From assembly GCA_031272705.1 (NCBI GenBank), contig JAISTG010000076.1:19204-83203 (forward strand): a DNA stretch of 64,000 nucleotides, written 5' to 3'. The first letter of the stretch is position 1. The number at the start of each line of letters is the position of its first letter. A model generated the notes under the pieces. The model was given only the letters and a program-made list of their open reading frames with translations, did not search any database and was not told the origin of the DNA. Both the position numbers and the translations under genes were made by a program. Origin of the DNA: Bacteroidales bacterium. Its GTDB lineage: Bacteria; Bacteroidota; Bacteroidia; Bacteroidales; P3. Positions 4,772 to 57,360 of the stretch are shown piece by piece.

Positions 4772-4937
4772 GTGTTTCTGAACCTTTATCTCGGCGTAGC
4801 CAAATCAAATTACAGCGTGCTAGAATTTGATTATAGATTTCTGTAATTTGATTCCAGCGTTCTATAATTTGATTCTAATTTTCTATAATCAAATTCTAAA
4901 AAATTAGAATCAAATAAGAGAAATCCGTAATCAACTT
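4772..4937. repeat. 21-bp-phased AAT-CAA-ATT module array, locus A (7 modules)
   Basis: 9-mer cores start at 4803(+), 4824(-), 4845(-), 4866(-), 4887(+), 4908(+, AATCAAATA) and 4929(+, AATCAACTT), exactly 21 bp apart. The left flank GTTTCTGAACCTTTATCTCGGCGTAGCCAAATC matches the left end of locus D. Confidence 0.9.
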
Positions 4938-5036
4938 TTGGTTTTTCAAAGTGAAGAAAAAGCAAATTATTTCTTACTTTTGATATTCTGTAAATTTATT
5001 TTTTTGTATTTATTTTGTCATTTCAAAAAAATGTTG

Positions 5037-5044
5037 TAATTTTG
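5037..5044 (+). promoter_or_regulatory. -7 promoter box TAatTTTG
   Basis: Upstream of the rpsO ATG at 5111. Confidence 0.45.
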
Positions 5045-5110
5045 CACGCTCAAAAAAACAGACTTTAAGCGAATTTAATAGTAATAATATAAAAATAAAA
5101 CAAGTAAAAT

Positions 5111-5380
5111 ATGTATTTAACGGCTGAAAAGAAACAGGAAATCTTTAAGCAATTTGGCGGAAACGCTGCCAACACAGGTTCAACGGAAGGTCAAATAGCA
5201 TTATTCACGTTTAGAATAAAACATTTGACTGAACACGTAATTAGAAGTAAAAAAGATAAATCCACACAACGTGCTTTGGTACGTCTGGTTGGCAAGAGAC
5301 GCCGCCTTTTAGACTACTTAAAAGACAGGGATATTGTGAAATACCGTGAGTTAATCAAAGAGTTAGGTATCAGAAAATAA
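5111..5380 (+). CDS. rpsO: 30S ribosomal protein S15
   Basis: 89 aa, MYLTAEKKQEIFKQFGG...TGSTEGQIALFT...RRLLDYLK. Shows the conserved rpsO-pnp arrangement. Confidence 0.95.
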   Translation: MYLTAEKKQEIFKQFGGNAANTGSTEGQIALFTFRIKHLTEHVIRSKKDKSTQRALVRLVGKRRRLLDYLKDRDIVKYRELIKELGIRK

Positions 5381-5561: not shown

Positions 5562-7805
5562 ATGTTAGGAACAAAGAAAGTCTTCACACTGGCAGACGGA
5601 AGACAGATAGAAATTGAAACCGGTAAGCTTGCCAAGCAAGCCGATGGTTCTGCCGTAGTTAGAATGGGCGATACAATGATTCTCGCCGCTGTTTGTGCAA
5701 AAAAAGAAGCAGGAGAGAACGTTGATTTTATGCCATTAAGCGTTGATTATCAAGAAAAGTATGCTGCAACCGGTCGTTTTCCGGGAGGATTCTTCAAACG
5801 TGAAGCAAGACCTTCGGAATATGAGATTTTGATTGCACGTCTGGTAGATAGGGCATTGCGTCCGTTGTTTCCTGATAATTATCACGCAGAAGTACAGGTG
5901 CAAATTACTTTAATATCGGGCGATCCGAACACTCCACCTGACGCATTGGCGGCATTGGCGGCAGCATCGGCTATAGCAGTATCCGATATTCCTTTTAACG
6001 GACCTGTAAGTGAGTGTCGCGTAGCGTATCTTGACGGAGAATTTAAGATAAATCCGTCTTTGGAAGAGATGGAACGTGCTGAACTTGATCTCATTGTAGC
6101 AGCCACCAAAGACAATATAATGATGGTGGAAGGTGAAATGAAGGAAGTAAGTGAGGAATTGATGTTAGAAGCGTTGCGTCAGGCACATAATAACATCAAG
6201 TTGCATTGTCAGGCTATTGATGAACTGATGTATGAGGTTGGAAAACAGGTAAAAAGAGAATATTGCCACGAAACAAACGATGAAGAGTTGCGATTGAAAC
6301 TCCATGATGCCGTTTATCAGCAATGTTATGACCTTGCACATAAGGGAATCAAAAATAAAAGTGAAAGAACAGAAGGTTTTGATGCCATAAAACAAGCCTT
6401 TGTTGAAACTCTTACACCTGAGGAAGTAGAGGAAAAGCAGTTTATGATTGACAGATACTTCCATGACGTAGAGAAAGAGGCTATGCGTGATATGGTTTTG
6501 AACGAAAGAACAAGACTTGACGGCAGAAAATTAGACGAAATCCGTCCTATCTGGACAGAAATTGACTATTTGCCATCTGCTCACGGCTCTGCAATCTTCA
6601 CAAGAGGGGAAACACAATCATTAACCACTTGTACGCTTGGAACAAAACTTGATGAACAGATAATAGACGGAGCAATGATAGAAGGTAAAAATCACTTTTT
6701 ACTGCACTATAATTTTCCGGGATTTTCCACAGGTGAAGTAAAACCAAACAGAGGTACTTCAAGGCGTGAAATAGGACATGGTAATCTTGCAATGAGAGCC
6801 TTAAAAAGTGTTATTCCTCCGCAGGAAGAATGTCCTTATACCATTAGAATAGTATCCGATATTCTTGAATCAAACGGCTCTTCCTCAATGGCAACTGTTT
6901 GTGCCGGCTGTCTGGCTTTGATGGATGCAGGTGTTAAAATTCGCAAACCTGTTTCCGGAATTGCTATGGGACTGATTGCAAAGGATGGAAAGTGGGCAGT
7001 ATTGTCCGATATTCTTGGAGATGAGGACCATTTGGGTGATATGGACTTTAAGGTTACAGGCACTCGTGATGGCATAACTGCTTGTCAAATGGATATAAAA
7101 TGTGATGGCTTGTCTTATGAAATACTTGCAAAAGCACTTGCGCAAGCAAAAGAAGGCAGACTGTTTATTTTGAATAAGATAACCGATACAATTCCTGAAC
7201 CGCGAGAAGACTACAAGCCTCACGTGCCAAGAGTTGTTCAAATGCAGATACCAAAGGATATGATTGGTGCAGTGATTGGACCTCAGGGAAAAATAATTCA
7301 AGAAATTCAAAAGGATACTAATACCGTTATTGTTATTGAAGACAAGGAAGAATACGGCACTGTTGATATTTCATCTGTAAATAAAGAAGGTATTGAAGCG
7401 GCTGTTGCACGTATCAAAGCGATAATTACCGTTCCTGTTGTAGGTGAAATATATCACGGAAAGGTTAAAAACTTGCAGTCTTTTGGAGCATTCATTGAGT
7501 TTTTGCCCGGTAAGGACGGAATGATTCACGTTTCTGACTTGCGTTGGGAAAAAGTTAAGAAGATTGAAGACGTAATTAAAATTGGTGAAGAGGTAGATGC
7601 AAAACTTATTGATATAGATAAGAAGACAGGAAAATACAAATTGTCTGTCAAATTGCTGTTGCCTAAACCCGAAGGATATGTTGAGCCGGAACCAAAGCCT
7701 AAAAGCGAGAACAAAAGACGCACAAAGCCGTCTCGCAAACGTAAAGAAAAATCGCCAAGTAAGGACAGAGGTAACGGAGACCGCAGTAACAATGCGGACA
7801 TATAA
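5562..7805 (+). CDS. pnp: polyribonucleotide nucleotidyltransferase (PNPase)
   Basis: 747 aa with two RNase PH-like halves, KH ([15 protein letters not shown]) and S1 ([20 protein letters not shown]) domains. Carries a Lys/Arg/Pro-rich C-terminal tail. Confidence 0.95.
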
Positions 7806-8043: not shown

Positions 8044-8100
8044 AGGCGTAGTTACCAAACAAATCGTGATTATTTAATATATGCTACGCCGAAGTTTTTT
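8044..8100 (+). repeat. hairpin element a (GAGGCGTAGTTACC...ATGCTACGCCGAAGTTTTT)
   Basis: GGCGTAG (8045-8051) pairs with CTACGCC (8084-8090). The termini are shared with element b, and the GCTACGCCGAAG...GTTCCGAA end resembles the locus D end. Confidence 0.8.
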
Positions 8101-8158
8101 TGTGTTCCGAATTTCTTTTTACACTTTAAAATTTTGTTTTTTAATGTTCATATGACCA

Positions 8159-8225
8159 GAGGCGTAGTTACCCAAAAGATTATTTATCATTTTGGTTTCT
8201 TGAGGTATGCTACGCCGAAGTTTTT
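8159..8225 (+). repeat. hairpin element b (GAGGCGTAGTTACC...ATGCTACGCCGAAGTTTTT)
   Basis: GGCGTAG (8161-8167) pairs with CTACGCC (8210-8216). An inner CCAAAA/TTTTGG stem is also present. Confidence 0.8.
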
Positions 8226-8229
8226 GAAA

Positions 8230-8433
8230 GGACAGCCAACGAATGGTTTAGGACAACCAACGGATGGTTTAGGACAGCCAACGGATGGTTTAGGACAGCC
8301 AACGAATGGTTTAGGACAACCAACGGATGGTTTAGGACAGCCAACGAATGGTTTAGGACAGCCAACGAATGGTTTAGGACAGCCAACGGATGGTTTAGGA
8401 CAGCCAACGAATGGTTTAGGACAGCCAACGAAT
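8230..8433. repeat. 21-bp tandem repeat GGACAGCCAACGAATGGTTTA, 9 full units plus 15 bp
   Basis: Units start at 8230+21n. Only two positions vary: G/A at unit position 6 and A/G at position 13. Open in three frames, which is a repeat artefact. Confidence 0.95.
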
Positions 8434-10426: not shown

Positions 10427-12916
10427 ATGAAAATATCTTATAATTGGCTTAAAGAATACATCGTAAAAACAAATGACAATACGCCCTTGCAGTTGGATGC
10501 TAACGAAGCGGCACGTAACCTTACTTTTGCAGGACTTGAAGTAGAATCCGTAGAGGTTGTGGAAAGTATTAAAGGCGGGTTACAAAATTATTATGTGGGA
10601 TTGGTTATTTCCTGCGTGCCTCATCCAAACAGCGATCATCTACACCTCACGCAGGTTGAGGTTGGTTTTGAACAGCCTTTGAATATAGTTTGCGGAGCGT
10701 CCAACGTGGCTACGGGACAAAAGGTTATTGTTGCGACCGTTGGGGCAAAGGTTTATACCGGAGAGGAGGATTATTTTGAGATAAAGAAAACTAAACTTCG
10801 TGGAGCAGAGAGTGAAGGTATGATTTGTTCGGAGAAGGAACTTGGGATAAGTGATAACCACGATGGAATTATGGTTTTACCTGACTCTGCTATTGTTGGA
10901 CAGGCAGCAAAAGATTATTTTAATATCACGGAAGATAGTATTTTTGAGATAGGGCTTACTCCAAACCGTTCCGATGCTGCTTCTCATATTGGTGTGGCGA
11001 GGGATTTGGTGGCGGTACTCAATGCTCAATGTGGCGAAAGAAAGTATAAAATAAATTATCCTTCGGTAGATAATTTTCAAACAGACTCAAATGATTATAA
11101 AATAGATATACAAATAGATGAAAAGTTGTGTCGGCGTTATGCGGCAGTGATTGTGAGCGGTGTAAAGATTGCTCCTTCTCCCGAATGGCTGCAAAATCAC
11201 CTGCGTGCTATCGGTTTGAAACCTGTAAATAATGTAGTGGATATAACAAATTATGTTCTTATGGAAACGGGACAGCCTTTACATGCCTTTGATTTTGACA
11301 AGGTTATTGGAAAAGAAATATCCGTTAAAACGCTTCCTGCAAAAACATCCTTTACAACCCTTGATGGAATTGTGAGAGAACTCAATGGCAATGAAGCAAT
11401 GGTTTGTAATTCTACGGAAGCAATGTGTATGGGTGGTATTTATGGAGGTCAGCACAGCGGAATAGGTAATAATACCACTGATGTATTGATTGAATCTGCG
11501 TGTTTCAACCCTGTGATTATTAGAAAAGCAAGCAAGTATCACAATTTGCACACTGACGCTTCGTTTCGTTTTGAACGCGGCAGCGATATAAACATTGTAC
11601 CTTATGCTTTAAAGCGTGCGGCTTTGTTAATGAAAGAATTGGCAGGGGGAAAGATTGCAAGTGATACAGTAGATGTTTATCCTGAAAAAGTAGAAGAGAC
11701 AAAGGTCTATTTAGATTATTCATATATGGACAATCTTATTGGTAAAAAAATAGACAGGAAAACAATTAAACTTATTCTTACTTCGTTGGAAATTAACATA
11801 GAGAGTGAAACACCGGAAGGATTAAGGGTTAACGTGCCGTCAAACAAAGTTGATGTAACGCGTCCATGTGATGTGGTAGAAGAAGTGTTGAGAATATATG
11901 GTTATAACAATGTTGAAATTACACAGGATGTTAAAAGCAGTCTTACCTATACTGCAAAACCTGACAGAGACAAAATTCGCAATATAATTTCCGACCTTTT
12001 GGTTGCCTCAGGTTTTAATGAGACAATGAACAACAGTCTTTCCAAAGTTGCTTATTACGATAATAATCAAGCCTTTCCTCAGGCACAGTCTGTTAATGTG
12101 CTAAATGCATTAAGTAAAGATTTGGGAGTGATGCGCCAAACACTGCTTTATGGTGGTATGGAAGTGATCGCGTATAATATAAACCGAAAAACGAATAACA
12201 TTCGTACGTTTGAATTTGGTAACTGTTATAAAAAAAATCTTGAAACCTTTGCCGACTCCAATATATTAAAGAGATATGATGAACAACAGCACCTTGCAAT
12301 TTTCGTAACAGGTAATTTGCAGGAAGAAAACTGGCAAATGAAACCTCAAAAGGCGGATTTCTTTTATTTGAAAAACGCAGTAATGAACGTATTGCAGCGA
12401 TTGAGGATAGATTTAGGGCGTTTTAACAGTGAGAAAGTAACGGCTGATTATTTTGAAGAAGGTTTGCAGTTGATTAATCGTGATAATGGGAAAATTTATG
12501 TACAGTTTGGCAAATTGAAAACAAATGTTTGCAAGGCTTTTGATGTAAAACAGGAAGTTTATTATGCTGATTTTGCATGGGACTTGTTGATAAAAACGTT
12601 GCCAAAGAAAGAAATAAAATATCAGGAGGTCGTTAAGTTTCCTGAAGTTAGACGAGACCTTGCACTGGTTGTTGATAAGGCTATATCCTTTAAAGATATT
12701 GAGACGGTGGCTTATCAATATGAAAAGCAACTGTTAAGAAATATATATCTCTTTGACGTTTATGAAGGAGAGAAACTTGAAAGCGGCAAAAAGCAATACG
12801 CAATCAGTTTCATCTTGCAGGACAAGGATAAAACCCTTACCGACAAACAGATTGAGGCAATAATGAATAAATTGCTCAAAGGTTTTGAAAAGGAGTTGGG
12901 AGCAAAATTACGATAG
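10427..12916 (+). CDS. pheT: phenylalanine--tRNA ligase beta subunit
   Basis: 829 aa. MKISYNWLKEY start, tRNA-binding OB domain, B3/4 and B5 regions, and a C-terminal FDX-ACB-like domain. Confidence 0.95.
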   Translation: MKISYNWLKEYIVKTNDNTPLQLDANEAARNLTFAGLEVESVEVVESIKGGLQNYYVGLVISCVPHPNSDHLHLTQVEVGFEQPLNIVCGASNVATGQKVIVATVGAKVYTGEEDYFEIKKTKLRGAESEGMICSEKELGISDNHDGIMVLPDSAIVGQAAKDYFNITEDSIFEIGLTPNRSDAASHIGVARDLVAVLNAQCGERKYKINYPSVDNFQTDSNDYKIDIQIDEKLCRRYAAVIVSGVKIAPSPEWLQNHLRAIGLKPVNNVVDITNYVLMETGQPLHAFDFDKVIGKEISVKTLPAKTSFTTLDGIVRELNGNEAMVCNSTEAMCMGGIYGGQHSGIGNNTTDVLIESACFNPVIIRKASKYHNLHTDASFRFERGSDINIVPYALKRAALLMKELAGGKIASDTVDVYPEKVEETKVYLDYSYMDNLIGKKIDRKTIKLILTSLEINIESETPEGLRVNVPSNKVDVTRPCDVVEEVLRIYGYNNVEITQDVKSSLTYTAKPDRDKIRNIISDLLVASGFNETMNNSLSKVAYYDNNQAFPQAQSVNVLNALSKDLGVMRQTLLYGGMEVIAYNINRKTNNIRTFEFGNCYKKNLETFADSNILKRYDEQQHLAIFVTGNLQEENWQMKPQKADFFYLKNAVMNVLQRLRIDLGRFNSEKVTADYFEEGLQLINRDNGKIYVQFGKLKTNVCKAFDVKQEVYYADFAWDLLIKTLPKKEIKYQEVVKFPEVRRDLALVVDKAISFKDIETVAYQYEKQLLRNIYLFDVYEGEKLESGKKQYAISFILQDKDKTLTDKQIEAIMNKLLKGFEKELGAKLR

Positions 12917-13333: not shown

Positions 13334-14394
13334 TAAAAACACGCAAGAAGCATAATCAAATTATGATGTTCAACAATGCTGCAATTTTTGTAGTCTCATA
13401 TTGGTTTGTTTTTTACTTTTACCAGTTACTTACGCTCATTCCTGCCTTTGCTTTACGGATTTCAGCAATCTTTTATACGGGAAAGATAGATTTTGACACA
13501 CTTACATCAGCCAGTTCGGCAGATATATGGCACGATGCGGACAATATATTTGCCATTTTCGGCACAGCACCGCTGGGGATTGTCTTTTTGGTTCTGTTTA
13601 ATGTCCTTATATTGTCAGGTATCAAGAATATGAGCCGGACTCTCAAAATTTTATGCTTTTGGAACATCCTAAACGGAATACTGAGATTTGGTGGTAATTT
13701 CATATTTGGTCATATCTTTTCGCTGTGGTCTTCTAATCTCGTAACAGACTTTTTAGAGATTTCTTTTCCAAGCCGTGCTGCTCAACTGATGTGTATTTTT
13801 GTTATGCTGTTTATTATTTTCATTGCCATACGTTATTCATGTAAAGCCGTAATACATTTATTCAATCCGTTAATGGGCGGTGTTAAGGAAAAGATTCTTT
13901 ATATGGTAATGTACCCTGCTCTTATTGGCTTGGCATATCTTACTTTGTTTTTCTCGGTATCGGGTTTCAACCAAAACGAATTTGGAATGGCTGTTTTGAG
14001 TGCTGTTTTTATCTTTTACTTTTATTGGAGTACGGCACGGAAATACAGACACGTAGCCGAGAAAAGACAAATAAATCCCATAGAATTAAATCGCAAACTG
14101 ATAATATGTGTTCTTGCTTTATCACTTGTTAAATTCATTGATATAAAAGGTATTGCTATCTACGGCACGTCTTATCGTGAGCAGATAATAGAAGGTTTCC
14201 TTATCATATTCTTTTCTTCTGTCTTTTTGCTTATTGTTTTTGGCATACTGTATTACCTGTACAAACGCCGCAAACGCCGTAAGCAATTACTGCTGGAAGC
14301 CAAAGAAATTTTTGAAACCAACAATGCCGATATTGATTACGAATTTTGGGGTATTAAAACGCACGATATGGATAAGTATAAAGGCAAATTATAA
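13324..14394 (+). CDS. multi-pass membrane protein, function unknown
   Basis: ORF 13315..14394 (TTG in the track). The first ATG is at 13324, with an alternative at 13363. About 8 hydrophobic spans and a basic C-terminal tail (YKRRKRRKQ). Confidence 0.5.
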   Translation: MEIIKTRKKHNQIMMFNNAAIFVVSYWFVFYFYQLLTLIPAFALRISAIFYTGKIDFDTLTSASSADIWHDADNIFAIFGTAPLGIVFLVLFNVLILSGIKNMSRTLKILCFWNILNGILRFGGNFIFGHIFSLWSSNLVTDFLEISFPSRAAQLMCIFVMLFIIFIAIRYSCKAVIHLFNPLMGGVKEKILYMVMYPALIGLAYLTLFFSVSGFNQNEFGMAVLSAVFIFYFYWSTARKYRHVAEKRQINPIELNRKLIICVLALSLVKFIDIKGIAIYGTSYREQIIEGFLIIFFSSVFLLIVFGILYYLYKRRKRRKQLLLEAKEIFETNNADIDYEFWGIKTHDMDKYKGKL

Positions 14395-15443: not shown

Positions 15444-15890
15444 ATGATTAGAACGAACAAAATCCTTTTTCATATAATTAACTATTTGAAATACAGATAT
15501 AAAGCCAAGAATGAATTTTCTATTCATTCTCCTTATATGTTTGAAACCTATCTTCAATGTATCAAGGGACGGAAAGATGATGATATAATCAGGGAACTGT
15601 CCAAACGAAATCAAGTTATAGAATTCTATAATCAAATTCCAGCAAACTGTAATCAAATTCTAGCGAACTGTAATCAAATTACAGAATTCTGTAATCAAGT
15701 TTCAGCAAACCATAATCAAATTACAGTAATTTATTACTTGAAAGGAATTTATCAAAACAAAAAAACACTGCAACAATGGGAAGAATTGCGGCAGCGAAAT
15801 AATGTATCACTTGATATAAATCTTTACTCTATGGGCTTGATTGTATGCAGAAAAGGTTTAAAACGTCAATCCTATATTCTAAAACGCTAA
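15444..15890 (+). pseudogene. probable remnant of a class I SAM-dependent methyltransferase; core replaced in frame by repeat array B
   Basis: The N-terminus (YLKYRYKAKNEFSIHSPYMFETYL) and C-terminus (VSLDINLYSMGLIVCRKGLKRQSYILKR) resemble the ends of ~220-aa Bacteroidota methyltransferases. No GxGxG SAM-binding core is present. The middle 42 codons are six 21-bp modules. Confidence 0.45.
15606..15734 (+). repeat. 21-bp-phased AAT-CAA-ATT module array, locus B (6 modules, all same orientation)
   Basis: Cores at 15609 (AATCAAGTT), 15630, 15651, 15672, 15693 (AATCAAGTT) and 15714. Translates in frame as heptads NQVIEFY NQIPANC NQILANC NQITEFC NQVSANH NQITVIY. Confidence 0.9.
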
Positions 15891-20090: not shown

Positions 20091-20196
20091 GTGTTTCTGA
20101 AATCAAATTACAGCGTGCTATAATCAAATTACAGAATTTTATAATCAAATTACAGCGTGCTGTAATTTGATTATAAAATTCTGTAATTTGATTTCA
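20091..20196. repeat. 21-bp-phased AAT-CAA-ATT module array, locus C (5 modules; 72-bp near-perfect palindrome)
   Basis: Cores at 20101(+), 20122(+), 20143(+), 20164(-) and 20185(-). 20122-20155 is the exact reverse complement of 20160-20193, with a 4-nt centre CGTG. Confidence 0.95.
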
Positions 20197-20280
20197 GGAA
20201 ATCCTAATGAGCAATCCTCCCAAATGAAAAGAAATAACACTAAATTATTATGTCCATTTGCTCATATCAATTTTTTTTTC

Positions 20281-20325: not shown

Positions 20326-21933
20326 ATGGATAAACTTTTATTATTAGGAGACGAAGCCATTGCACAAGCAGCCATAGATGCGGGTTTGTCGGGCGTTTTT
20401 GCCTATCCGGGCACTCCTTCAACCGAAATAACAGAATATATACAGGACTCCAAAGAAGCCAAAGCAAAAGGTATCCGTTCCAACTGGGCTTGCAACGAAA
20501 AGACAGCAATGGAAGCGGCGTTGGGAATGAGTTATGCGGGCAAGCGAGCAATGTTTTGCTGCAAGCATGTGGGCATTAACGTGGCGGCAGATCCCTTTTT
20601 GAATTCCGCAATCACGGGTGCAAACGGCGGATTGATTTATGTAGCAGCCGATGATCCCTCTATGCACTCCTCACAGGACGAACAGGACTCACGTTTCTAC
20701 GGAGACTTTGCCTTCATGCCAACATTGGAGCCAAGCAATCAGCAGGAAGCATACGATATGGTGCTGTATGGCTTTGAGTTAAGCGAAAAATACGGCGTTC
20801 CCGTACTGATGCGTATCACTACACGTATGGCTCACTCCCGTGCAGCAGTGGTTCGCAAGGGTGAAAAGGCTCAAAATAATCTCAAAATACCGGATAATCA
20901 AAACCAATTCATATTACTGCCCGTTAATGCACGCAGACAGTACAAGGAATTGCTGGCTAAACAGCCTGATTTGATGAAAGCGGGCGTTGAAAGCGGCTTC
21001 AATAAATATATGGAAGGCGAAGACAAGTCTATGGGAATCATTGCCTGCGGTATTTCCTACAATTATTTGATGGAAAACTTTGTTTCGGGACAATGTAACT
21101 ATCCCGTATTGAAACTTTGTCAATATCCTGCTCCCGAAATCCTGATAGAAAAGATGTACGATGAATGTAACAGCATACTTGTTCTTGAAGAGGGACAGCC
21201 ACTTCTTGAACAGAAATTACGCGGACTACTCAACAAAGGCAAGCAAATAAAGGGACGTCTTGACGGAACTTTGGAACGCACCGGTGAATTGAACCCTAAT
21301 ATGGTTGGAAAGGCATTGGGCTTACATATAACTGAGGGCTTGTCCGTTCCATCTTTTGTTGCTCCACGTCCTCCAAAGTTATGCGACGGTTGTCCGCACA
21401 TTGATTCTTTCCTTGCTTTGAATGAGGCGATTGAACCTTATGGAAAGGGTCGCGTTTTCAGTGATATAGGCTGTTATACGCTTGCTGCACTGCCTCCTTA
21501 TAACGCTATATACTCCACAGTTGATATGGGAGCATCAATAACAATGGCTAAGGGTGCGGCGGAAGCAGGTTTAATGCCATCCGTAGCAGTCATTGGCGAC
21601 TCCACATTTACACACAGCGGTATGACAGGCTTGTTAGACTGTTGCGTAGATAACATTCCAATCACCATAATAATACTTGACAACGACATAACGGGAATGA
21701 CAGGTTCTCAAAAGTCATCTGCAACAGGTAGAATTGAGTCTATCTGCAAGGGAATAGGCGTTGATGAGGCTCATATAAGGGTTTTCAATCCGTTAAAAAA
21801 GTTCCATGCCGACAATGTAAAGATTATACAGGAGGAATTGGCATATCAGGGCGTTTCCGTAATCATTCCAAGAAGAGAATGTTTGGTTTGGTTGAAGAAA
21901 AAACTTAATGCCGCACGCCAAAACAAACAATAG
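20326..21933 (+). CDS. iorA: indolepyruvate ferredoxin oxidoreductase alpha subunit
   Basis: 535 aa. LLLGDEAIAQAAIDAGLSGVFAYPGTPSTEI N-terminus, LCDGCPH cluster region and TPP-binding GDSTFTHSGMTGLLD. Confidence 0.85.
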   Translation: MDKLLLLGDEAIAQAAIDAGLSGVFAYPGTPSTEITEYIQDSKEAKAKGIRSNWACNEKTAMEAALGMSYAGKRAMFCCKHVGINVAADPFLNSAITGANGGLIYVAADDPSMHSSQDEQDSRFYGDFAFMPTLEPSNQQEAYDMVLYGFELSEKYGVPVLMRITTRMAHSRAAVVRKGEKAQNNLKIPDNQNQFILLPVNARRQYKELLAKQPDLMKAGVESGFNKYMEGEDKSMGIIACGISYNYLMENFVSGQCNYPVLKLCQYPAPEILIEKMYDECNSILVLEEGQPLLEQKLRGLLNKGKQIKGRLDGTLERTGELNPNMVGKALGLHITEGLSVPSFVAPRPPKLCDGCPHIDSFLALNEAIEPYGKGRVFSDIGCYTLAALPPYNAIYSTVDMGASITMAKGAAEAGLMPSVAVIGDSTFTHSGMTGLLDCCVDNIPITIIILDNDITGMTGSQKSSATGRIESICKGIGVDEAHIRVFNPLKKFHADNVKIIQEELAYQGVSVIIPRRECLVWLKKKLNAARQNKQ

Positions 21934-23860: not shown

Positions 23861-24841
23861 TTACTTGCTTATAATCTTCATTAGTTCATCTACCTTTGGC
23901 GAAAGAATTATTTCAGTTCGTCTGTTACGGGCGCGGTTTTCGGTTGTACGGTTATCCATCAAAGGCATAAACTCTCCACGTCCAGCAGGAATGATACGTT
24001 CAGGCGATATACGTTTGTCTTCCAGCAATATCCGCGTAACGGAAGTAGCCCTCATCACCGATAAATCCCAGTTATCTTTCACCAAACTCTTACCCTTGAA
24101 CGGCACATTGTCGGTATGACCCTCCACAAGCACACTTATATCCGGATTATTTGCAAGAACGTTGGCTATTTCCTTTAATGCAGCCGCTCCTTCGCTGTTT
24201 ATCTCCCAACTACCTGACGGGAATAGCAGTTTCTCTTCCAAAGATACATACACCTTACCGTCTTTGGTCACAACGCTTAAACCTTTGTCGGTAAAGCCAA
24301 GCAGGGCTGAGGATATTTTTTGTTCAATTGCCTCCAACTCATCTTCTTTTGCCTGCAGGCTTTGCTGCAAAGATTGAAGCATACGCTCATTTGCCACAAA
24401 TTTTTCCTGCATTGTGCTTAATTCTTTATCCTTTGCGTCTAATTCTTCCGTTTTTTTGTTCAGTGCTTCGCGAGAAGAATTTAACTCATCATTCATTCGT
24501 TTCAGGTCAGTCCCCTTTGCCGACACTGCTTCATTCAATCGCTTGTTGGCATCTTCAATTTGGGACTTCAGTTCTTCATTATACTTTTTCAGTTGCAGGT
24601 TTTCGCTGTACCTTTCCCTTGATTCTGCTTCTATTATTTGCGTTTTTTCCATCATTCCCGCTATTTGTGCCGACAGATTGCCGGTTTCTTCATTGAAAGC
24701 GTTCCTTTCGGCAAGGCAAGTTTGGAGTTGTTGCGATGTTTTGTTGTATCGGCTTTCCAAATCAGCGTATTTTTGTTTTGATACGCAGGAAACAAACAAC
24801 AAAAGGCTGAATGACAATAATATAAATGCTGTTTTTTTCAT
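23861..24841 (-). CDS. OmpA/MotB-domain lipoprotein with long coiled coil
   Basis: Lipobox LLFVSC, about 170 aa of heptad-rich coiled coil, and a C-terminal OmpA-like domain (VEGHTDNVP...NWDLSVMRATSV...NRRTEIIL). Confidence 0.8.
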   Translation of the reverse strand: MKKTAFILLSFSLLLFVSCVSKQKYADLESRYNKTSQQLQTCLAERNAFNEETGNLSAQIAGMMEKTQIIEAESRERYSENLQLKKYNEELKSQIEDANKRLNEAVSAKGTDLKRMNDELNSSREALNKKTEELDAKDKELSTMQEKFVANERMLQSLQQSLQAKEDELEAIEQKISSALLGFTDKGLSVVTKDGKVYVSLEEKLLFPSGSWEINSEGAAALKEIANVLANNPDISVLVEGHTDNVPFKGKSLVKDNWDLSVMRATSVTRILLEDKRISPERIIPAGRGEFMPLMDNRTTENRARNRRTEIILSPKVDELMKIISK

Positions 24842-24941
24842 ACTCTTAATCGTTTTACGACGGCAAAAGTAAATATAATTTTTTTAATATGGGCATTTTG
24901 TGGCCTTTTTTTATCGTTTGCGCTTCACACAACGCCATTTT

Positions 24942-25117
24942 CGTTTCCGGAACCTTTATTTTGGCGTAGCCAAATCTAATTACGATTCTCCATAATCAAA
25001 TAATATTTCTCTAAAATCAAGTTTCATTCATCTATAATCAAATAATAGACAAATATAATCTAATTATAGAACAATAGAATTAGATTTGGCTACGTCGAGT
25101 TAAAAGTTCGGAAAAGT
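24942..25117. mobile_element. MITE-like element: locus D array (6 modules) bounded by ~38-bp imperfect terminal inverted repeats
   Basis: The left end CGTTTCCGGAACCTTTATTTTGGCGTAGCCAAATCTAATT matches the reverse complement of the right end CTTTTCCGAACTTTTAACTCGACGTAGCCAAATCTAATT. Cores at 24973+21n (n=0-5), variants AATCTAATT/AATCAAATA/AATCAAGTT. No coding capacity. Confidence 0.7.
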
Positions 25118-25133
25118 ATATCCGGATTCTGCT

Positions 25134-27899
25134 TTAACGGAATATAATTAACTTTTGCGAAACGCTTAATTCATCACTCACAAGTTTGAGGTTGTATGTG
25201 CCGAAAGGGTAATTACGAAGGTCAAGAGTAAGTTCTGTTTGATTGGCTTTTAACTTTATGGCTTCATACTGCTGTCCCTGCATATTGGAAATTAACAACA
25301 TAGCATCTTTTGTCAAACCCGATATTTCCACAACGGCACTTTCTCTGCTTGGATTGGGCGAAATCCGTAAGCCAATGCTCATTGGAGAAATATCCATCAG
25401 GGAATTGTAAGCCCATGATTTAATTTCACCATAACTTATGGTGTCATCGTAACTTTGTATGTACGCTCTGCATTTATAATTATTAATTCCGTTAACACGA
25501 TTCACGGTTGTGTTAAAATGAACTGTGCTTGACGTGAATTGAACAGGCATCATAATTGGGTTATTTTCACCAATAGTAACCTCAAAACCAAGTTCTGTTG
25601 CCGCAGGATTTCCCATTTGAACCACCGTTCCATACAACGTGGCTGCATTTTCTGATATTACAACCGAGTCTGTTAATACTGACGCAATTACAGGAGATAA
25701 TGTAGAAAGGGAATAAGGATTTCCAAATACAGTATCGCTTCCCGTTACAGCGAAAGCCCAAAAAGTATAGGTGAATGCAGGGCGAAGATTTGATATATCT
25801 GCGGTTATGTTTGTTGTTCCGTTGCCTTGAAAATATAAATAGGTTAAGGAAAATGGGTCATACAGGCTAAAACCGCGTGCGATTATCGGTTCGCTGCCCT
25901 GAATGACTGTTCCGTTCAACGTAGCAGAGGTTGGAGTGATGTTAGTTGCGTCATTGGTCGTTACCGAAGGCGGTGTTTCAGTCGTAATTTGCTGTATGCC
26001 TGCTAAGGCATTGAGTTTTCCGTAACCCCAAATGAAGACCGGCGGATAAGTACCTGTATAAGAGTCTATTATAGCCGTATTTTGCATAACGTTTATCACT
26101 TGTGCAGGGGTCAAAGAAGGGTTTTTCTGTAACCAAAGAGCAATAACGCCCGCTGCAAACGGACTCGACATTGACGTACCTGAGGCTACACCGTAGTACC
26201 AAGTCGTTGCGTTATGCGTTTGTGAAGCCACGATTGTCGCACTTGAGGTAGGGTTAGCCACGTTGTCTGAATAGTTGCTGTAGGAAGAAACCAATGCATG
26301 ACCGGGAGCGGCAATCGTTGGTTTTACTCTGCCGTCTGAGGTTGGTCCTTTGCTGGAAAAGTCTGCTATATCTCCAACATTATCACTCCAATAGCCATAA
26401 TTAGAGCCGCCAAGCGTTATCCAGTTATTTTTAGATGTCCATGCACCGACCGCAATCGTGTTATAACCTGTTGCAAGGCAGTTAATAGTCTGGTCGGTTG
26501 AGCCTGAGGTGAAGGTAGAATTAGGTACTGAGGTATCTAATGAAAAGTCCGTACACCATATACTTGTATTTGTTCCTTCCGTAGCGCTGCTTCGCACCCT
26601 TATAACTACTTTTACATTAGATGAAAGATTGACAGAACTTAACATAATTAAAGCATTAGGTTTGTAATTGTAGTTATCAGCACTTTCGGCGTAAATTTGA
26701 ACATCGCAGGTATTGCTTCCTGATGAAACGGAATTTGAATAAGAGGAACTGTTTGATGTTTGTGTGAAAGTGGTTGTTGCGATGTATGTATTGGTTGCTG
26801 TGTTATAGAGAGCCACTGCTACGGAAAAATGATTGAAATTACTGCCCCAAACATACGCATAGCCATCATCAAAATCCGTATCTATGTTACAGATTACGTT
26901 CATTGTATCTACGCCTGTTTGTGTTTTGGTTGCAAACAGGGGATTGTTGCCTTCGTTACCCGCACTTATCACAGGAATAACGCCGGATGAAGCAATGTTA
27001 TCCATAAACTGCTCAAAACTGCTCGTACCATCATTAGGTCCTCTGTTACTTCCAAGACTCATATTGATAACACAAGGTTTGCTTTGACTTAAAGCGTAAT
27101 TTTTGATATACGAAGCCCCGTTTGCAATGCCTGTAGAAGTCATATTGGTTGATACAAAGACCAAATCGGACTCCGGAGCAACGCCTCGCAGACTTGCATT
27201 ATTAACTCCACCTGAGCCTCCTGCAATTCCTGCAACGTGAGTAGCATGATTGCCGTTTGTATGGTCGTGCTGACGATTAAGGATGGCTGTTTGCGAGGTG
27301 TATTCCGCACCAATACTATAACCGGACGGAGGAGTACCACTGCCGTTTTGCTCCCATACACGCTTTACTCTGTAATTTGTGTGAGTGTTATCATAAAAGG
27401 TCGGATGGGTATAGTCAAAGCCATTGTCAATAATACCAACTATTACACCGGTTCCTTTATATGCCTGACTCAAACCCGCACCTGAATGCACCTGTTCAAC
27501 GTTAGATTTTGCGCGAGCAGAGTCTAAAAAAAGTTTTACAGGCTCCGAAGCATCTATGTAATAAACTCCTTCAACGCTTTTAACGTTTTCAATCTGCGAA
27601 ATAGGGATTAGACAAGTCCAAATCTTTCCTGCATGAGCGTTTAATTTCACTCCTAAATTTTCTAATGCCTTTGAGTCAAAGGTTTCGCTTGTTTGCATAA
27701 AACAATTCGCGTATACGATATTGTCCTGTAAGGAAAGAGCGAATTTATTTACGAAAGCCGAATCGTTTATCGGTTTTCCGTCTCGTTGTAACTGCTCTGT
27801 CTGATGCACAATGGCACGAGTATAAGGTGAAAGTTTTGCTTGCTGTGCATAAACTGCATTAAGAGCAATTAGCAATGTGATAAAAACAATTTTTTTCAT
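25134..27899 (-). CDS. S8 (subtilisin) family serine peptidase with T9SS C-terminal sorting domain
   Basis: Catalytic triad contexts IIDNGFDYTHP (D), HATHVAGIAGG (H) and GTSMSSPFAAGV (S). Has a signal peptide and a C-terminal ~80 aa (ISPNPSRESAVVEISGL...YNLKLVSDELSVSQKLIIFR) typical of type A T9SS CTDs. Confidence 0.85.
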   Translation of the reverse strand: MKKIVFITLLIALNAVYAQQAKLSPYTRAIVHQTEQLQRDGKPINDSAFVNKFALSLQDNIVYANCFMQTSETFDSKALENLGVKLNAHAGKIWTCLIPISQIENVKSVEGVYYIDASEPVKLFLDSARAKSNVEQVHSGAGLSQAYKGTGVIVGIIDNGFDYTHPTFYDNTHTNYRVKRVWEQNGSGTPPSGYSIGAEYTSQTAILNRQHDHTNGNHATHVAGIAGGSGGVNNASLRGVAPESDLVFVSTNMTSTGIANGASYIKNYALSQSKPCVINMSLGSNRGPNDGTSSFEQFMDNIASSGVIPVISAGNEGNNPLFATKTQTGVDTMNVICNIDTDFDDGYAYVWGSNFNHFSVAVALYNTATNTYIATTTFTQTSNSSSYSNSVSSGSNTCDVQIYAESADNYNYKPNALIMLSSVNLSSNVKVVIRVRSSATEGTNTSIWCTDFSLDTSVPNSTFTSGSTDQTINCLATGYNTIAVGAWTSKNNWITLGGSNYGYWSDNVGDIADFSSKGPTSDGRVKPTIAAPGHALVSSYSNYSDNVANPTSSATIVASQTHNATTWYYGVASGTSMSSPFAAGVIALWLQKNPSLTPAQVINVMQNTAIIDSYTGTYPPVFIWGYGKLNALAGIQQITTETPPSVTTNDATNITPTSATLNGTVIQGSEPIIARGFSLYDPFSLTYLYFQGNGTTNITADISNLRPAFTYTFWAFAVTGSDTVFGNPYSLSTLSPVIASVLTDSVVISENAATLYGTVVQMGNPAATELGFEVTIGENNPIMMPVQFTSSTVHFNTTVNRVNGINNYKCRAYIQSYDDTISYGEIKSWAYNSLMDISPMSIGLRISPNPSRESAVVEISGLTKDAMLLISNMQGQQYEAIKLKANQTELTLDLRNYPFGTYNLKLVSDELSVSQKLIIFR

Positions 27900-38854: not shown

Positions 38855-39175
38855 GAAAGCCCGTTTTAATTTCACGAAACCTAGGTTCTAAAAAAATGAA
38901 ACCTAGGTTTCGTGAAATTGAAACCTAGGTTCTAAAAAAATGAAACCTAGGTTTCGTGAAATTGAAACCTAGGTTCTAAAAAATTAAAACCTAGGTTTCG
39001 TGAAATTGAAACCTAGGTTCTAAAAAAATGAAACCTAGGTTTCGTGAAATTGAAACCTAGGTTCTAAAAAAATGAAACCTAGGTTTCGTGAAATTAAAAC
39101 CTAGGTTCTAAAAAAATGAAACCTAGGTTTCGTGAAATTAAAACCTAGGTTTCACAACTCACGAAACGGGCTTTC
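38855..39175. repeat. array of 13 AACCTAGGTT palindromes at exact 22-bp phasing (44-bp alternating unit), flanked by a 12-bp inverted repeat
   Basis: AACCTAGGTT starts at 38878+22n for n=0-12. Units alternate GAAACCTAGGTTCTAAAAAAAT and GAAACCTAGGTTTCGTGAAATT. The flanks GAAAGCCCGTTT (38855-38866) and AAACGGGCTTTC (39164-39175) are reverse complements. Confidence 0.95.
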
Positions 39176-39203
39176 GTCAAAATGAAACGCCGTTCCATAA
39201 CAA

Positions 39204-40643: not shown

Positions 40644-40715
40644 ATGAATATATCGGGTTTGGAAGTGCATAAAGATAGTATATTGTGTATGCTTTACGAT
40701 GGAAAAACCATTTGA
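40644..40715 (+). pseudogene. possible 23-codon stub of an IS110-family transposase
   Basis: MNISGLEVHKDSILCMLYDGKTI-stop resembles the M..(I/V)G(I/L)DVHK(D/K)S(I/F)..C N-termini of IS110-family DEDD transposases. A TAtaTTTG box at 40612-40619 precedes it and repeat array G follows directly. Confidence 0.3.
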
Positions 40716-56987: not shown

Positions 56988-57360
56988 CTGCTATTTTTCA
57001 TTTTAAGGTATCAAAATGCGAAAAAATTATATTATGTGCCTGTTTCAATTTGCCAAAATTTAGTAATGAATCATTTAGAGTAGTATTTCACTTTGGGTAA
57101 TACATTATAAATGACTTATTTTTCAATATGAATACAATGAAATCAACTTATAATTGTCTCAAACTTGCTTGGGTTCATCCAAAATCAAATAATATTGATC
57201 GTTTCCTGCGGGGAAACTGCAATTATCATGGCAGGAAACCATCGTTTTCCCCGCAGGAAAACATCATTATCCTGCGGAGAAACGCTCAATGTTCTTTGAT
57301 TATGGAGGAATAAAACTTGATTTTGAATAAATAAAACTTCACTTTGTGGAAACTTTTTCT

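What the first reader, a model, noticed from the sequence alone, without database searches (positions are those of the whole stretch)
24942..25117. Locus D looks like an intact non-autonomous mobile element (array core plus ~38-bp terminal inverted repeats)
Only this copy has both ends. The left end is CGTTTCCGGAACCTTTATTTTGGCGTAGCCAAATCTAATT. The reverse complement of the right end is CTTTTCCGAACTTTTAACTCGACGTAGCCAAATCTAATT. Locus A keeps only the left end (GTTTCTGAACCTTTATCTCGGCGTAGCCAAATC). Locus C keeps only GTGTTTCTGAA fused directly to the first module. The hairpin elements at 8044-8225 share the GGCGTAG...GCTACGCCGAAG...GTTCCGAA termini. This pattern suggests a MITE-like family whose interior is the 21-bp module array and whose copies are decaying. 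No transposase is present in the window apart from a 23-codon IS110-like stub.
Basis: partly seen in the sequence, partly recalled or inferred. Interest (0 to 1): 0.6.

Follow-up and report, generated by a model that had tools for sequence, protein, structure and literature searches.

The report
Two-ended copy of 21-bp palindrome repeat
Locus D is a real, non-coding, hairpin-forming copy of the commonest of many families of 21-22-bp "brick" repeats that fill the gene spacers of this uncultured Bacteroidales bacterium. Its "terminal inverted repeats" are two diverged copies of the family's ordinary end brick, not the ends of a classical transposon.

Summary
The inverted termini at 24942-25117 are real: 33 of 40 aligned positions match, and the RNA hairpin scores z = -8.

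The MITE reading holds only in part. The GGCGTAGCC "cap" is a diverged variant of the family's normal terminal module (TTCCTGA + core). There are 27 caps in the genome, against 229 AATCAAATT arrays holding about 1,290 modules. Locus D is the only array capped at both ends.

Two full-length homologues of locus D exist (C107:13660-13854 and C47:4950-5142). At least 17 other arrays have both ordinary termini. None shows a target-site duplication.

No autonomous partner was found. The genome has no Y1/RAYT, DDE_Tnp_1 or rve transposase, and only broken IS110 fragments.

The arrays are not simply decaying:
- Module cores are nearly invariant while the linkers vary freely.
- Paralogous sites with identical flanks carry 5, 5, 5, 6, 6 and 7 modules.

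The family is one of about 92 families with a 21/22-bp period (425 loci, 2.2% of the genome). A sister species has a similar density of arrays built from a different palindromic module.

The best fit is a REP/BIME-like or BrickBuilt-like mosaic repeat. It appears to spread without duplications and to grow in place by whole bricks. What copies it is unknown.

The parts
24942..24981 (+). Left terminal module of locus D, the 'cap' variant: CGTTTCCGGAACCTTTATTTTGGCGTAGCCAAATCTAATT
   Evidence: Read. It differs at 3 of 32 positions from the cap consensus TTCCTGAACCTTTATCTCGGCGTAGCCAAATC. It occupies the same position as the ordinary terminal module of homologous elements.
24973..25086 (+). Interior of six 21-bp-phased modules of the diverged 'subtype-2' kind (cores AATCTAATT, AATCAAATA, AATCAAGTT, AATCAAATA, AATCTAATT, AATTAGATT)
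   Evidence: Copies at 21-bp spacing from 24972 and TRF period 21 at 24986-25080. Homologous over 97-145 nt at 77-83% to C107, C47, C71 and C37. The same arm sequence flanks 22-bp core arrays elsewhere in the genome. It matches G001 sites at 79-94%.
25078..25117 (-). Right terminal module of locus D, the second cap in inverted orientation (reverse complement CTTTTCCGAACTTTTAACTCGACGTAGCCAAATCTAATT)
   Evidence: In the homologues C107 and C47 the same position holds an ordinary terminal module ...GTAATCAARTTTCAGRAAA. Both end cores of locus D carry the same derived change (AATCTAATT / AATTAGATT), which keeps the pair complementary.
25134..27899 (-). Upstream gene: S8 peptidase with a T9SS C-terminal sorting domain. 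Its stop codon lies 17 nt from the element.
   Evidence: ORF. Pfam Peptidase_S8 E 1.2e-41 and Por_Secre_tail E 5.9e-7.
23861..24841 (-). Downstream gene: OmpA-family protein. A Bacteroidetes-type -7 box TACTTTTG lies at 24864-24871 (minus strand), between the element and the start codon.
   Evidence: ORF, Pfam OmpA. The box was read; the TAnnTTTG consensus is from my own knowledge.
4772..4940 (+). Locus A: an array with a cap at its left end only
20091..20205 (+). Locus C: an array with the ordinary termini TTTCTGA|AATCAAATT ... AATTTGATT|TCAGGAA on both sides (orientation pattern +++--)
8045..8216 (+). Two small cap-like hairpins, GGCGTAG...CTACGCC (8045-8090 and 8161-8216)
   Evidence: Two more of this kind lie at C89:4436 and C123:6118.

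Best explanation
Locus D is one two-ended, 176-bp copy of a small sub-family with at least three full-length copies. That sub-family belongs to the genome's dominant repeat family.

The dominant family consists of arrays of 21-bp near-palindromic modules, CTRnAAT-CAA-ATTnYAG plus a 4-nt linker, lying in gene spacers. The '38-bp TIRs' are two copies of a diverged variant of the family's terminal module. At locus D they sit at both ends, so the whole element can fold into one long imperfect hairpin.

The family behaves like REP/BIME (REPIN) elements or the BrickBuilt/PgRS minisatellite-MITEs of Porphyromonas gingivalis:
- Shown: it is a non-coding mosaic built from a limited set of bricks.
- Shown: copies lie at many unrelated sites with sharp borders.
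- Shown: there are no target-site duplications.
- Shown: arrays lengthen, shorten and flip modules in place in steps of exactly 21 bp.
- Shown: the module sequence is specific to the species, while the architecture is shared across the bacterial family.
- Inferred: copying between sites is done by a structure- or sequence-specific activity acting on hairpin or cruciform DNA without staggered cuts, or by recombination and gene conversion between arrays. A DDE cut-and-paste transposase is not the agent.
- Inferred: the 21-bp step (two helical turns) and the invariant core reflect a dimeric DNA-binding protein that reads the bricks.

At locus D itself no function beyond a tolerated spacer element is indicated.
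For: Family size. AATCAAATT occurs 1,001 times against 73 expected. There are 229 arrays of at least 3 cores, and 951 of the core-to-core spacings are exactly 21 bp.

Conservation. The core is nearly invariant and the linker free.

Location. 194 arrays lie between genes and 11 lie in ORFs.

The cap is a terminal module.
- About 101 of 454 array ends read TT(C/T)CTGA just before the first core.
- The cap starts with the same TTCCTGA.
- It aligns column for column with the ordinary end module of the homologues C107 and C47.

Copying between sites. 27 caps with 1-8 mismatches lie at unrelated loci, in no fixed orientation to genes. Three D-type copies share their internal order, and their similarity stops at TTCC.../...GGAAAA.

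No target-site duplications.

Change in place. Six paralogous T9SS-gene 3' flanks share the same left flank. Four of them also share the same right flank. The six hold 5, 5, 5, 6, 6 and 7 modules with different orientation strings.

Species specificity.
- G000 has 343 exact module pairs. Its three congeners have 0-2. 19 of 261 genomes of the family have any.
- G001 has 46 arrays of a different module, AATGAAA-CAGCC-TTTCATT, in 400 kb.
- G000 has 425 loci of period 21/22 in about 92 families, 2.18% of the genome.

No classical transposase.
Against: - No empty site or presence/absence polymorphism could be examined, so movement is inferred from copy distribution only.
- The enzyme or protein is unidentified.
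- The assembly is a 125-contig MAG. Multi-copy IS elements could have been lost from it, so the absence of transposases is weak evidence.
- Terminal inverted repeats and sharp borders are also what a true MITE shows.
- The in-place variation was seen between paralogous sites, not between strains.
- The minus-strand RNA of locus D folds 13 kcal/mol better than the plus strand. This could hint at an RNA-level role at this one site.
Confidence: 0.55

Rival explanations
1. Classical MITE: a deletion derivative of an insertion sequence, moved in trans by a DDE transposase (as proposed for BrickBuilt with IS5-family ISPg elements). The other arrays would be decayed copies.
For: Imperfect 40-nt terminal inverted repeats. 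Small size, no coding capacity and many dispersed copies. Three full-length D-type copies with sharp borders. The published precedent of a MITE with a minisatellite core (PMC4596501).
Against: - No target-site duplication in 20 two-ended copies.
- No DDE_Tnp_1 or rve gene in the genome.
- No cap pair encloses a transposase gene.
- The median best full-length similarity between arrays is only 75%, while module cores are invariant. Neutral decay of transposed copies would give the opposite pattern.
- Orientation strings are highly diverse.
- Arrays vary in place.
Confidence: 0.15
2. True REP/BIME-RAYT system: the palindromic modules are REPs that a domesticated IS200-type Y1 transposase (RAYT) cuts and copies as single-stranded hairpins.
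For: - Palindromic unit, extragenic, in both orientations, and mixed with other motifs in mosaics.
- No duplications at the borders.
- The sequence is species-specific.
Against: - Pfam Y1_Tnp is absent from G000 and from all three congeners, including the array-rich 20-contig G001. It is present in G266, which has few arrays.
- The modules lack the unpaired GTAG or CGTC tag that defines the two REP super-families (PMC3733652; module logo).
Confidence: 0.1
3. Host cis-sites: the arrays are cooperative binding platforms for a dimeric DNA-binding protein (for example a nucleoid-associated HU-HIG paralogue). They are kept by selection for promoter or nucleoid architecture. Locus D would be one such site.
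For: - The core is invariant and the linkers free.
- Phasing is strict at two helical turns.
- Divergent promoter-bearing spacers are over-represented: 29% of arrays against 13% of all spacers.
- Outward-facing Bacteroidetes promoter boxes lie next to many arrays.
- The module is conserved across genera as short arrays of 2-5 mostly direct modules.
- By eye, 7 of 13 HU-HIG genes have a period-21/22 array within about 200 bp upstream, each of a different family.
Against: - No recurrent neighbouring gene.
- The HU-HIG association is not significant. A scripted count found 4 of 11 called genes, against 32% of all genes with a spacer of 100 bp or more (p 0.5).
- A sister species uses a different module at similar density.
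- Module numbers differ between near-identical paralogous sites.
- 27 copies of one idiosyncratic cap variant point to copying, not to independent selection.
Confidence: 0.2

Closest known systems
BrickBuilt and MITEPgRS/464 of Porphyromonas gingivalis (Klein et al. 2015, PMC4596501)
   Same: Found in Bacteroidales and always intergenic. The core is a tandem repeat without spacers (23 or 41 nt there, 21 nt here). Flanking end segments carry short inverted repeats, many copies lack one or both ends, and target-site duplications are absent or inconsistent.
   Different: - BrickBuilt has 19 copies. Here there are 229 arrays of one family and 425 loci of about 92 families.
[quoted passage not shown] Here the ends are themselves modules and no IS matches them.
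- Here the modules are near-palindromes and occur in both orientations in register.
REP / BIME / REPIN elements of Enterobacteria and Pseudomonas, with their RAYT transposases
   Same: Short extragenic palindromes at high copy number. They are arranged in mosaics with other motifs and in both orientations. There are no target duplications. The sequences are species-specific, and arrays can be amplified in tandem (BIME-2).
   Different: No RAYT/Y1 gene in this genus. No GTAG or CGTC tag. The period is strictly 21 bp. No sense-strand bias in RNA folding was seen across 108 co-directional sites.
BOX elements of Streptococcus pneumoniae (boxA - boxB repeated - boxC); comparison from my own knowledge
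   Same: Modular build: distinct end modules form an inverted repeat around a variable number of tandem middle modules. No transposase is known.
   Different: The boxB unit is 45 bp. The ends boxA and boxC are distinct from the middle unit. Copy number is lower, and there are not dozens of parallel families.
Rickettsia palindromic elements (RPE); relevant to array B
   Same: A repeat sits in frame inside a conserved ORF without breaking it. Array B (window 15609-15726) makes the G000 protein 21 aa longer than its orthologues.
   Different: RPEs are single 100-150-bp insertions, not phased 21-bp arrays.

Membership tests
[quoted passage not shown] | Terminal inverted repeats of about 15-40 bp | tested here: met
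   33 of 40 aligned positions are identical between the two ends. Arms of 70 nt are 74% complementary.
[quoted passage not shown] | Small, non-coding, multiple dispersed copies | tested here: met
   The element is 176 bp. There are three full-length D-type copies, 27 capped ends and 229 arrays.
[quoted passage not shown] | Target-site duplication of fixed length at the borders | tested here: not met
   None at locus D, C107 or C47. In 17 two-ended arrays, direct repeats of 4 nt or more do not exceed the shuffled-partner control.
[quoted passage not shown] | A resident autonomous IS with the same ends, or a transposase able to act in trans | tested here: not met
   No cap pair encloses a transposase. 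PF01797, PF01609 and PF00665 are absent, and PF01548 is present only as broken fragments. Caveat: the assembly is a 125-contig MAG and other transposase families were not searched.
[quoted passage not shown] | Filled versus empty sites among strains or relatives | not testable with these tools
The only other public contig is identical and breaks inside the element. The nearest relatives share at most 59% protein identity. Congeners are 70-80% identical in genes, and synteny breaks at every array site in the window.
REP / BIME (REPIN-RAYT) | Imperfect palindrome of 20-40 bp, extragenic, high copy number, in both orientations | tested here: met
   A 17-bp dyad sits within the 21-bp unit. There are about 1,290 modules with both core orientations in register. 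194 arrays are intergenic.
REP / BIME (REPIN-RAYT) | Unpaired GTAG or CGTC tag at one end of the palindrome (PMC3733652) | tested here: not met
   The module logo has no such tag. In the cap, GTAG lies inside the paired stem GGCGTAG/CTACGCC.
REP / BIME (REPIN-RAYT) | Cognate RAYT (Y1 HUH transposase) gene in the genome | tested here: not met
   PF01797 has no match in G000, G001, G002 or G003. The positive controls were detected.
BrickBuilt-type minisatellite MITE | Spacer-less tandem-repeat core flanked by leader and tail that bear IS5-like TIRs (GAGACC...) | tested here: inconclusive
   The tandem core and inverted end segments are present. The ends read TTCCTGAA..., not GAGACCTTTGCA, and no IS5-type transposase was found. 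Sequence homology to BrickBuilt itself was not tested.

The most novel reading that the evidence does not exclude
This Bacteroidales family carries a repeat-making system that is not described in the papers I could search. It builds and maintains arrays of short palindromes spaced exactly 21-23 bp apart. Dozens of module families coexist in one genome (2.2% of the DNA). The dominant module is replaced between sister species. No classical transposase is present. On this reading an unidentified protein measures two helical turns and reads or copies the bricks. The 'cap' of locus D would then show how end modules diverge and found new sub-families.
Probability: 0.3. Interest if true: 0.75.

Novelty: new variant of a known kind. 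Interest (0 to 1): 0.5.

Why it matters
Taken alone, locus D is an ordinary spacer repeat. Its context matters more.

A 2.15-Mb genome holds 425 arrays of 21/22-bp period, and 229 of them come from one family. A sister species holds a comparable load of a different palindromic brick. None of the usual transposases that explain REPs or MITEs was detected.

If this holds in closed genomes, these bacteria offer a tractable case for three questions:
- How short palindromic repeats spread and stay uniform without a RAYT or an IS.
- What sets a two-helical-turn step.
- Whether such arrays shape promoters or the nucleoid.

There is also a practical point. These arrays break short-read assemblies: the Logan contig ends inside locus D. 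They also create spurious ORFs.

Tried and rejected
- **Strain comparison.** The exact-protein look-up found one Logan contig, identical to the window and broken inside the element.
- **Closer relatives.** Scans of genome contigs and metagenome contigs with the OmpA-family neighbour gave at most 59% identity.
- **Empty sites in congeners.** Genes are 66-82% identical, and the two flanks of every array in the window lie on different contigs. A systematic test found 127 syntenic adjacent gene pairs in 400 kb of G001. Only 2 carried an array in G000 and 2 in G001, with none shared, so the test has no power.
- **Target-site duplications.** None found.
- **RAYT.** Absent.
- **IS110.** Five degenerate fragments, only one of them next to an array.
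- **DDE_Tnp_1 and rve.** Absent.
- **A ten-member protein family lying next to arrays.** These proved to be T9SS-tail proteins, not transposases.
- **The cap pair 12.8 kb apart on C36.** It encloses housekeeping genes.
- **RNA-level function.** Among 108 co-directional sites, 53 fold better as sense RNA and 55 as antisense (p 0.68). Rfam has no family match at the locus. There is no terminator-like site and no excess of sigma-70-like promoters.
- **End-to-end hairpin as a conserved fold.** The consensus fold of the three D-type copies keeps only an internal hairpin. The cap-to-cap stem is particular to locus D.
- **HU-HIG proteins as readers (a lead from another report).** 13 genes were found. 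7 have arrays upstream by eye and 4 of 11 by script, against a 32% background. This is not significant.

Full report
**1. What lies at 24942-25117.**
The stretch sits between the stop codon of an S8 peptidase gene with a T9SS tail (25134-27899, minus strand; Pfam) and the promoter and start of an OmpA-family gene (23861-24841, minus strand). It has inverted arms 24944-25013 / 25046-25115, 70 nt long and 74% complementary, and an interior with 21-bp periodicity.

The two quoted termini align with 33 identities and one gap over 40 columns. As single strands the element folds far better than shuffled sequence:
- minus-strand RNA, -61.2 kcal/mol, z -8.05
- plus-strand RNA, -48.0 kcal/mol, z -6.45
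- DNA, -25.8 kcal/mol, z -5.1

There is no Rfam match at the locus, no terminator-like site and no excess of sigma-70-like promoter matches.

**2. The family it belongs to.**
The window is C27:19204-83203 of a 2.15-Mb, 125-contig, 37.6% G+C assembly. The flanking genes' best public relatives are uncultured Bacteroidales MAGs, at 59% identity or less.

- The 9-mer AATCAAATT occurs 1,001 times against 73 expected.
- Allowing one mismatch, there are 229 arrays of at least 3 cores. 951 of the core-to-core spacings are exactly 21 bp. Cores occur in both orientations in register. Typical arrays have 5-6 modules.
- The logo of 1,290 modules is CTR-n-AATCAAATT-n-YAG plus four nearly free positions. 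This is a 17-bp dyad with an asymmetric CAA/TTG centre.
- The orientation of the centre is uncoupled from the orientation of the linker, and orientation strings are very diverse.
- Arrays are unique mosaics. The median best full-length match to another array is 75%.
- 194 arrays lie between genes: 108 in tandem, 57 in divergent and 29 in convergent spacers. The genome's spacers overall are 73%, 13% and 14% of these kinds. 11 arrays lie inside called ORFs.

**3. What the 'cap' is.**
A fuzzy search with TTCCTGAACCTTTATCTCGGCGTAGCCAAATC finds 27 cap copies with 1-8 mismatches. They show no fixed orientation to neighbouring genes. Four are solo caps with no array. Only locus D has two caps around an array. 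Four small hairpins with GGCGTAG...CTACGCC stems exist, two of them at window 8045-8090 and 8161-8216.

The commonest array end, about 101 of 454 ends, is TT(C/T)CTGA directly before the first core. The cap begins with the same TTCCTGA. In the alignment of locus D with its homologues, the right cap of D occupies exactly the columns of an ordinary end module...GTAATCAARTTTCAGRAAA. The left end of the C47 homologue is intermediate between the cap and an ordinary module: TCCGTAACCTTTATTTTTGTGTAATCAATC.

The cap is therefore a diverged variant of the family's terminal module, not a separate kind of terminus. That one idiosyncratic 32-nt variant recurs at 27 unrelated loci is good evidence that end segments have been copied between sites.

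**4. Full-length relatives, borders and duplications.**
BLAST of locus D against the genome finds these homologues:

| Contig | Coordinates | Identity | Length aligned |
|---|---|---|---|
| C107 | 13712-13853 | 77% | 145 nt |
| C47 | 5017-5113 | 77% | 97 nt |
| C71 | 7420-7534 | 83% | 115 nt |
| C37 | 92-212 | 82% | 121 nt |

D, C107:13660-13854 and C47:4950-5142 share the same internal order. One extra module is present in the latter two. Similarity stops at TTCC... on the left and ...GGAAAA on the right, beyond which the flanks are unrelated. So locus D is not the only two-ended copy. It is the only one whose two ends are both of the cap variant.

No direct repeat flanks any of the three copies. 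In 17 arrays with the ordinary terminus on both sides, direct repeats of 4 nt or more do not exceed a shuffled-partner control.

The consensus fold of the three copies keeps an internal hairpin only. Both end cores of D carry the same derived change (AATCTAATT / AATTAGATT), which preserves their pairing.

**5. Composite relatives.**
The interior of locus D is made of diverged 'subtype-2' modules...TTCATTCATCTATAATCAAATAATA... In about 15 other loci these form inverted arms around 22-bp arrays of other palindromes: TATGTTGCCAACATA, TTTCCCCGCAGGAAA and AAAGATGGCATCTTT. One such locus lies in the window at 57200-57340. One composite, C71:7414, starts with a cap. Locus D looks like the two arms and ends of such a composite with no central array.

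**6. The arrays change in place.**
Six paralogous 3' flanks of T9SS-tail genes share the gene end, a terminator-like hairpin and the left border TTTTCTGA. Four of them (C11, C55, C51, C29) also share the same right flank. C113 and C117 have different right flanks.

| Contig | Modules |
|---|---|
| C113 | 5 |
| C11 | 5 |
| C51 | 5 |
| C117 | 6 |
| C55 | 6 |
| C29 | 7 |

The orientation strings also differ between them. This shows gain, loss and flipping of whole 21-bp modules between fixed flanks.

Array B (window 15609-15726) lies in frame inside a small ORF that is conserved in G003 and G001. There the protein is 21 aa shorter. At the same place it carries an unrelated 57-60-nt segment with weak 21-nt periodicity.

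**7. Distribution.**
- Exact module pairs at 21-bp spacing number 343 in G000, 0-2 in the three congeners and 49 in one genome of another genus. 19 of 261 genomes of the family have any.
- In other genera the arrays are short, 2-5 modules of TAGAATCAAATT(A/C)(C/T)A. They are mostly direct in G019 and of mixed orientation in G266 and G212. They have no caps and sit in ordinary gene spacers.
- The congener G001 lacks AATCAAATT arrays. In 400 kb it has 68 TRF rows of period 21, and 46 arrays (at least 3 cores) of a different near-palindrome, AATGAAA-CAGCC-TTTCATT, in both orientations.
- G000 itself has 425 loci of period 21/22 or multiples. They total 46.8 kb (2.18% of the genome) and fall into about 92 sequence families. 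20 families have at least 3 loci. Many have palindromic cores such as GTACATGTAC, TAGCATGCTA, GTAACGTTAC and GAAACCTAGGTTTC.
- Samples from six further genomes of the family show arrays of period 21-23, several with palindromic units, at lower density. A 50% G+C genome shows none in 40 kb.

Locus D is thus a small part of a clade-wide habit, not one decaying MITE family.

**8. Search for a mobilising enzyme.**
- Pfam Y1_Tnp (RAYT/IS200) has no match in G000 or its three congeners. It is present in G019 and, as seven identical copies, in G266.
- DDE_Tnp_1 and rve have no match.
- DEDD_Tnp_IS110 matches two fragments with stop codons. Together with three N-terminal stubs, one of which is the 23-codon stub beside array G, this makes five degenerate IS110 remnants.
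- The only multi-copy protein family lying next to arrays consists of T9SS-tail proteins.
- A lead from another report of this scan names HU-HIG DNA-binding proteins as readers of such arrays. I tested it partly. G000 has 13 HU-HIG matches. By eye 7 have a period-21/22 array within about 200 bp upstream, each of a different family. A scripted count gives 4 of 11 called genes, against a background of 32% for genes with a spacer of 100 bp or more (p 0.5). This is suggestive at most.
- The HU-HIG gene next to an AATCAAATT array on C3 carries an in-frame TAG.

**9. Empty sites.**
These could not be examined. The one other public contig is identical and ends inside the element. No close relatives exist in the contig collections. 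Synteny with congeners is broken at every array site in the window. A systematic test had no power.

One anecdote is worth recording. Upstream of the G001 orthologue of the gene at window 20326-21933, where G000 has array C, G001 has a five-unit 21-bp array of a related but different module, GTTGTTTGATTTCGYTATAAC.

**10. How it most likely works.**
Shown:
- The element is built from bricks.
- Its ends are bricks too.
- Copies with one shared end variant lie at many sites.
- Borders are sharp and carry no duplications.
- Arrays gain and lose whole bricks in place.
- Cores stay uniform within a genome but differ between sister species.

Inferred:
- Spread occurs by a route that makes no staggered cuts. 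This could be hairpin or single-strand processing as in REPINs but by another enzyme, or recombination and gene conversion between arrays.
- Arrays grow by slippage or unequal exchange.
- A dimeric protein reads the dyad and favours a two-turn spacing.

RNA-level selection is unlikely for the family, since sense and antisense RNAs fold equally well at 108 sites.

**11. Comparison with known elements.**
The nearest published analogues are BrickBuilt and PgRS of P. gingivalis. These are intergenic minisatellite cores with inverted end segments, many copies lack ends, and duplications are inconsistent (PMC4596501). REP/BIME elements are the other close analogue. The defining tests fail for a classical MITE (no duplication, no partner IS) and for REP-RAYT (no tag, no RAYT); see the membership table. 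My searches of the held paper library returned nothing on such arrays in Bacteroidales beyond the P. gingivalis work.

**12. Verdict.**
'Intact non-autonomous element' is right in a loose sense. 'MITE with 38-bp TIRs whose relatives are decayed copies' is not the best description. Locus D by itself is ordinary. The genome-wide and clade-wide pattern around it is the notable part.

Noticed in passing
window 15444-15890 (array B at 15609-15726); L199:1508-1867; L201:376-723: Array B lies in frame in a small conserved ORF. The orthologues in two congeners are 21 aa shorter and carry an unrelated 57-60-nt segment at that spot. The ORF is therefore not a gutted methyltransferase, and it has no Pfam match.
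   Followed up: yes
whole genome G000 (for example window 8229-8433 and 38876-39188): TRF finds 425 loci of period 21/22 or multiples, 2.18% of the genome, in about 92 sequence families. Only about half are of the AATCAAATT kind. Many of the other units have palindromic cores that resemble restriction sites, such as GCATGC, AACGTT, CCTAGG and TACGTA.
   Followed up: partly
G001:C1:1-400000 (L202-L221): The sister species has no AATCAAATT arrays. It has 46 arrays in 400 kb of a different 21-bp near-palindrome, AATGAAA-CAGCC-TTTCATT, in both orientations.
   Followed up: partly
G000 C113:25405, C11:4775, C117:17223, C55:245, C51:4720, C29:15521: A family of secreted proteins shares a nearly identical T9SS C-terminal domain. 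Six members also share the downstream hairpin plus an AATCAAATT array, and the arrays differ in module number (5 to 7). The gene end and the array seem to be duplicated or converted together.
   Followed up: partly
window 40644-40715; G000 C124:607-672, C9:4642-4704, C113:3009-3338, C36:3073-3300: Five degenerate IS110-family remnants and no intact copy. Only the one in the window abuts an array.
   Followed up: partly
G001:C1:245198-245305 versus window 20101-20205: Upstream of orthologous genes, both species carry a five-unit 21-bp array, but with different modules (GTTGTTTGATTTCGYTATAAC versus AATCAAATT-type). This may be an old array whose sequence has turned over.
   Followed up: no
G000 C124:36235-36699 and other contigs: Some 21-bp arrays are open in frame and produce spurious ORFs of 7-aa repeats (for example MKTFHNT repeated). 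125 of the 425 repeat loci fall mostly inside ORFs called by length alone.
   Followed up: no
G000 C3:2043-2420 (L242:544-921) and 12 other sites: There are 13 HU-HIG family genes. Several have a period-21/22 array just upstream, each from a different repeat family. The one next to an AATCAAATT array has an in-frame TAG. The association is not significant against background.
   Followed up: partly
G266:C1 (seven sites, for example 12478-12840): Seven identical IS200-type Y1 transposase genes lie in a genome of another genus that has only a few AATCAAATT arrays. Y1 presence does not follow array load.
   Followed up: no
L182:823-915 and L183:3055-3126 (G019:C30, G261:C58): In two genomes of another genus, an array of 4-5 same-orientation (direct) AATCAAATT-type modules (minus strand in these loci) lies next to an excisionase-like HTH gene, a zinc-finger primase-like gene and an HU-HIG-like gene. 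This is probably a mobile element.
   Followed up: no
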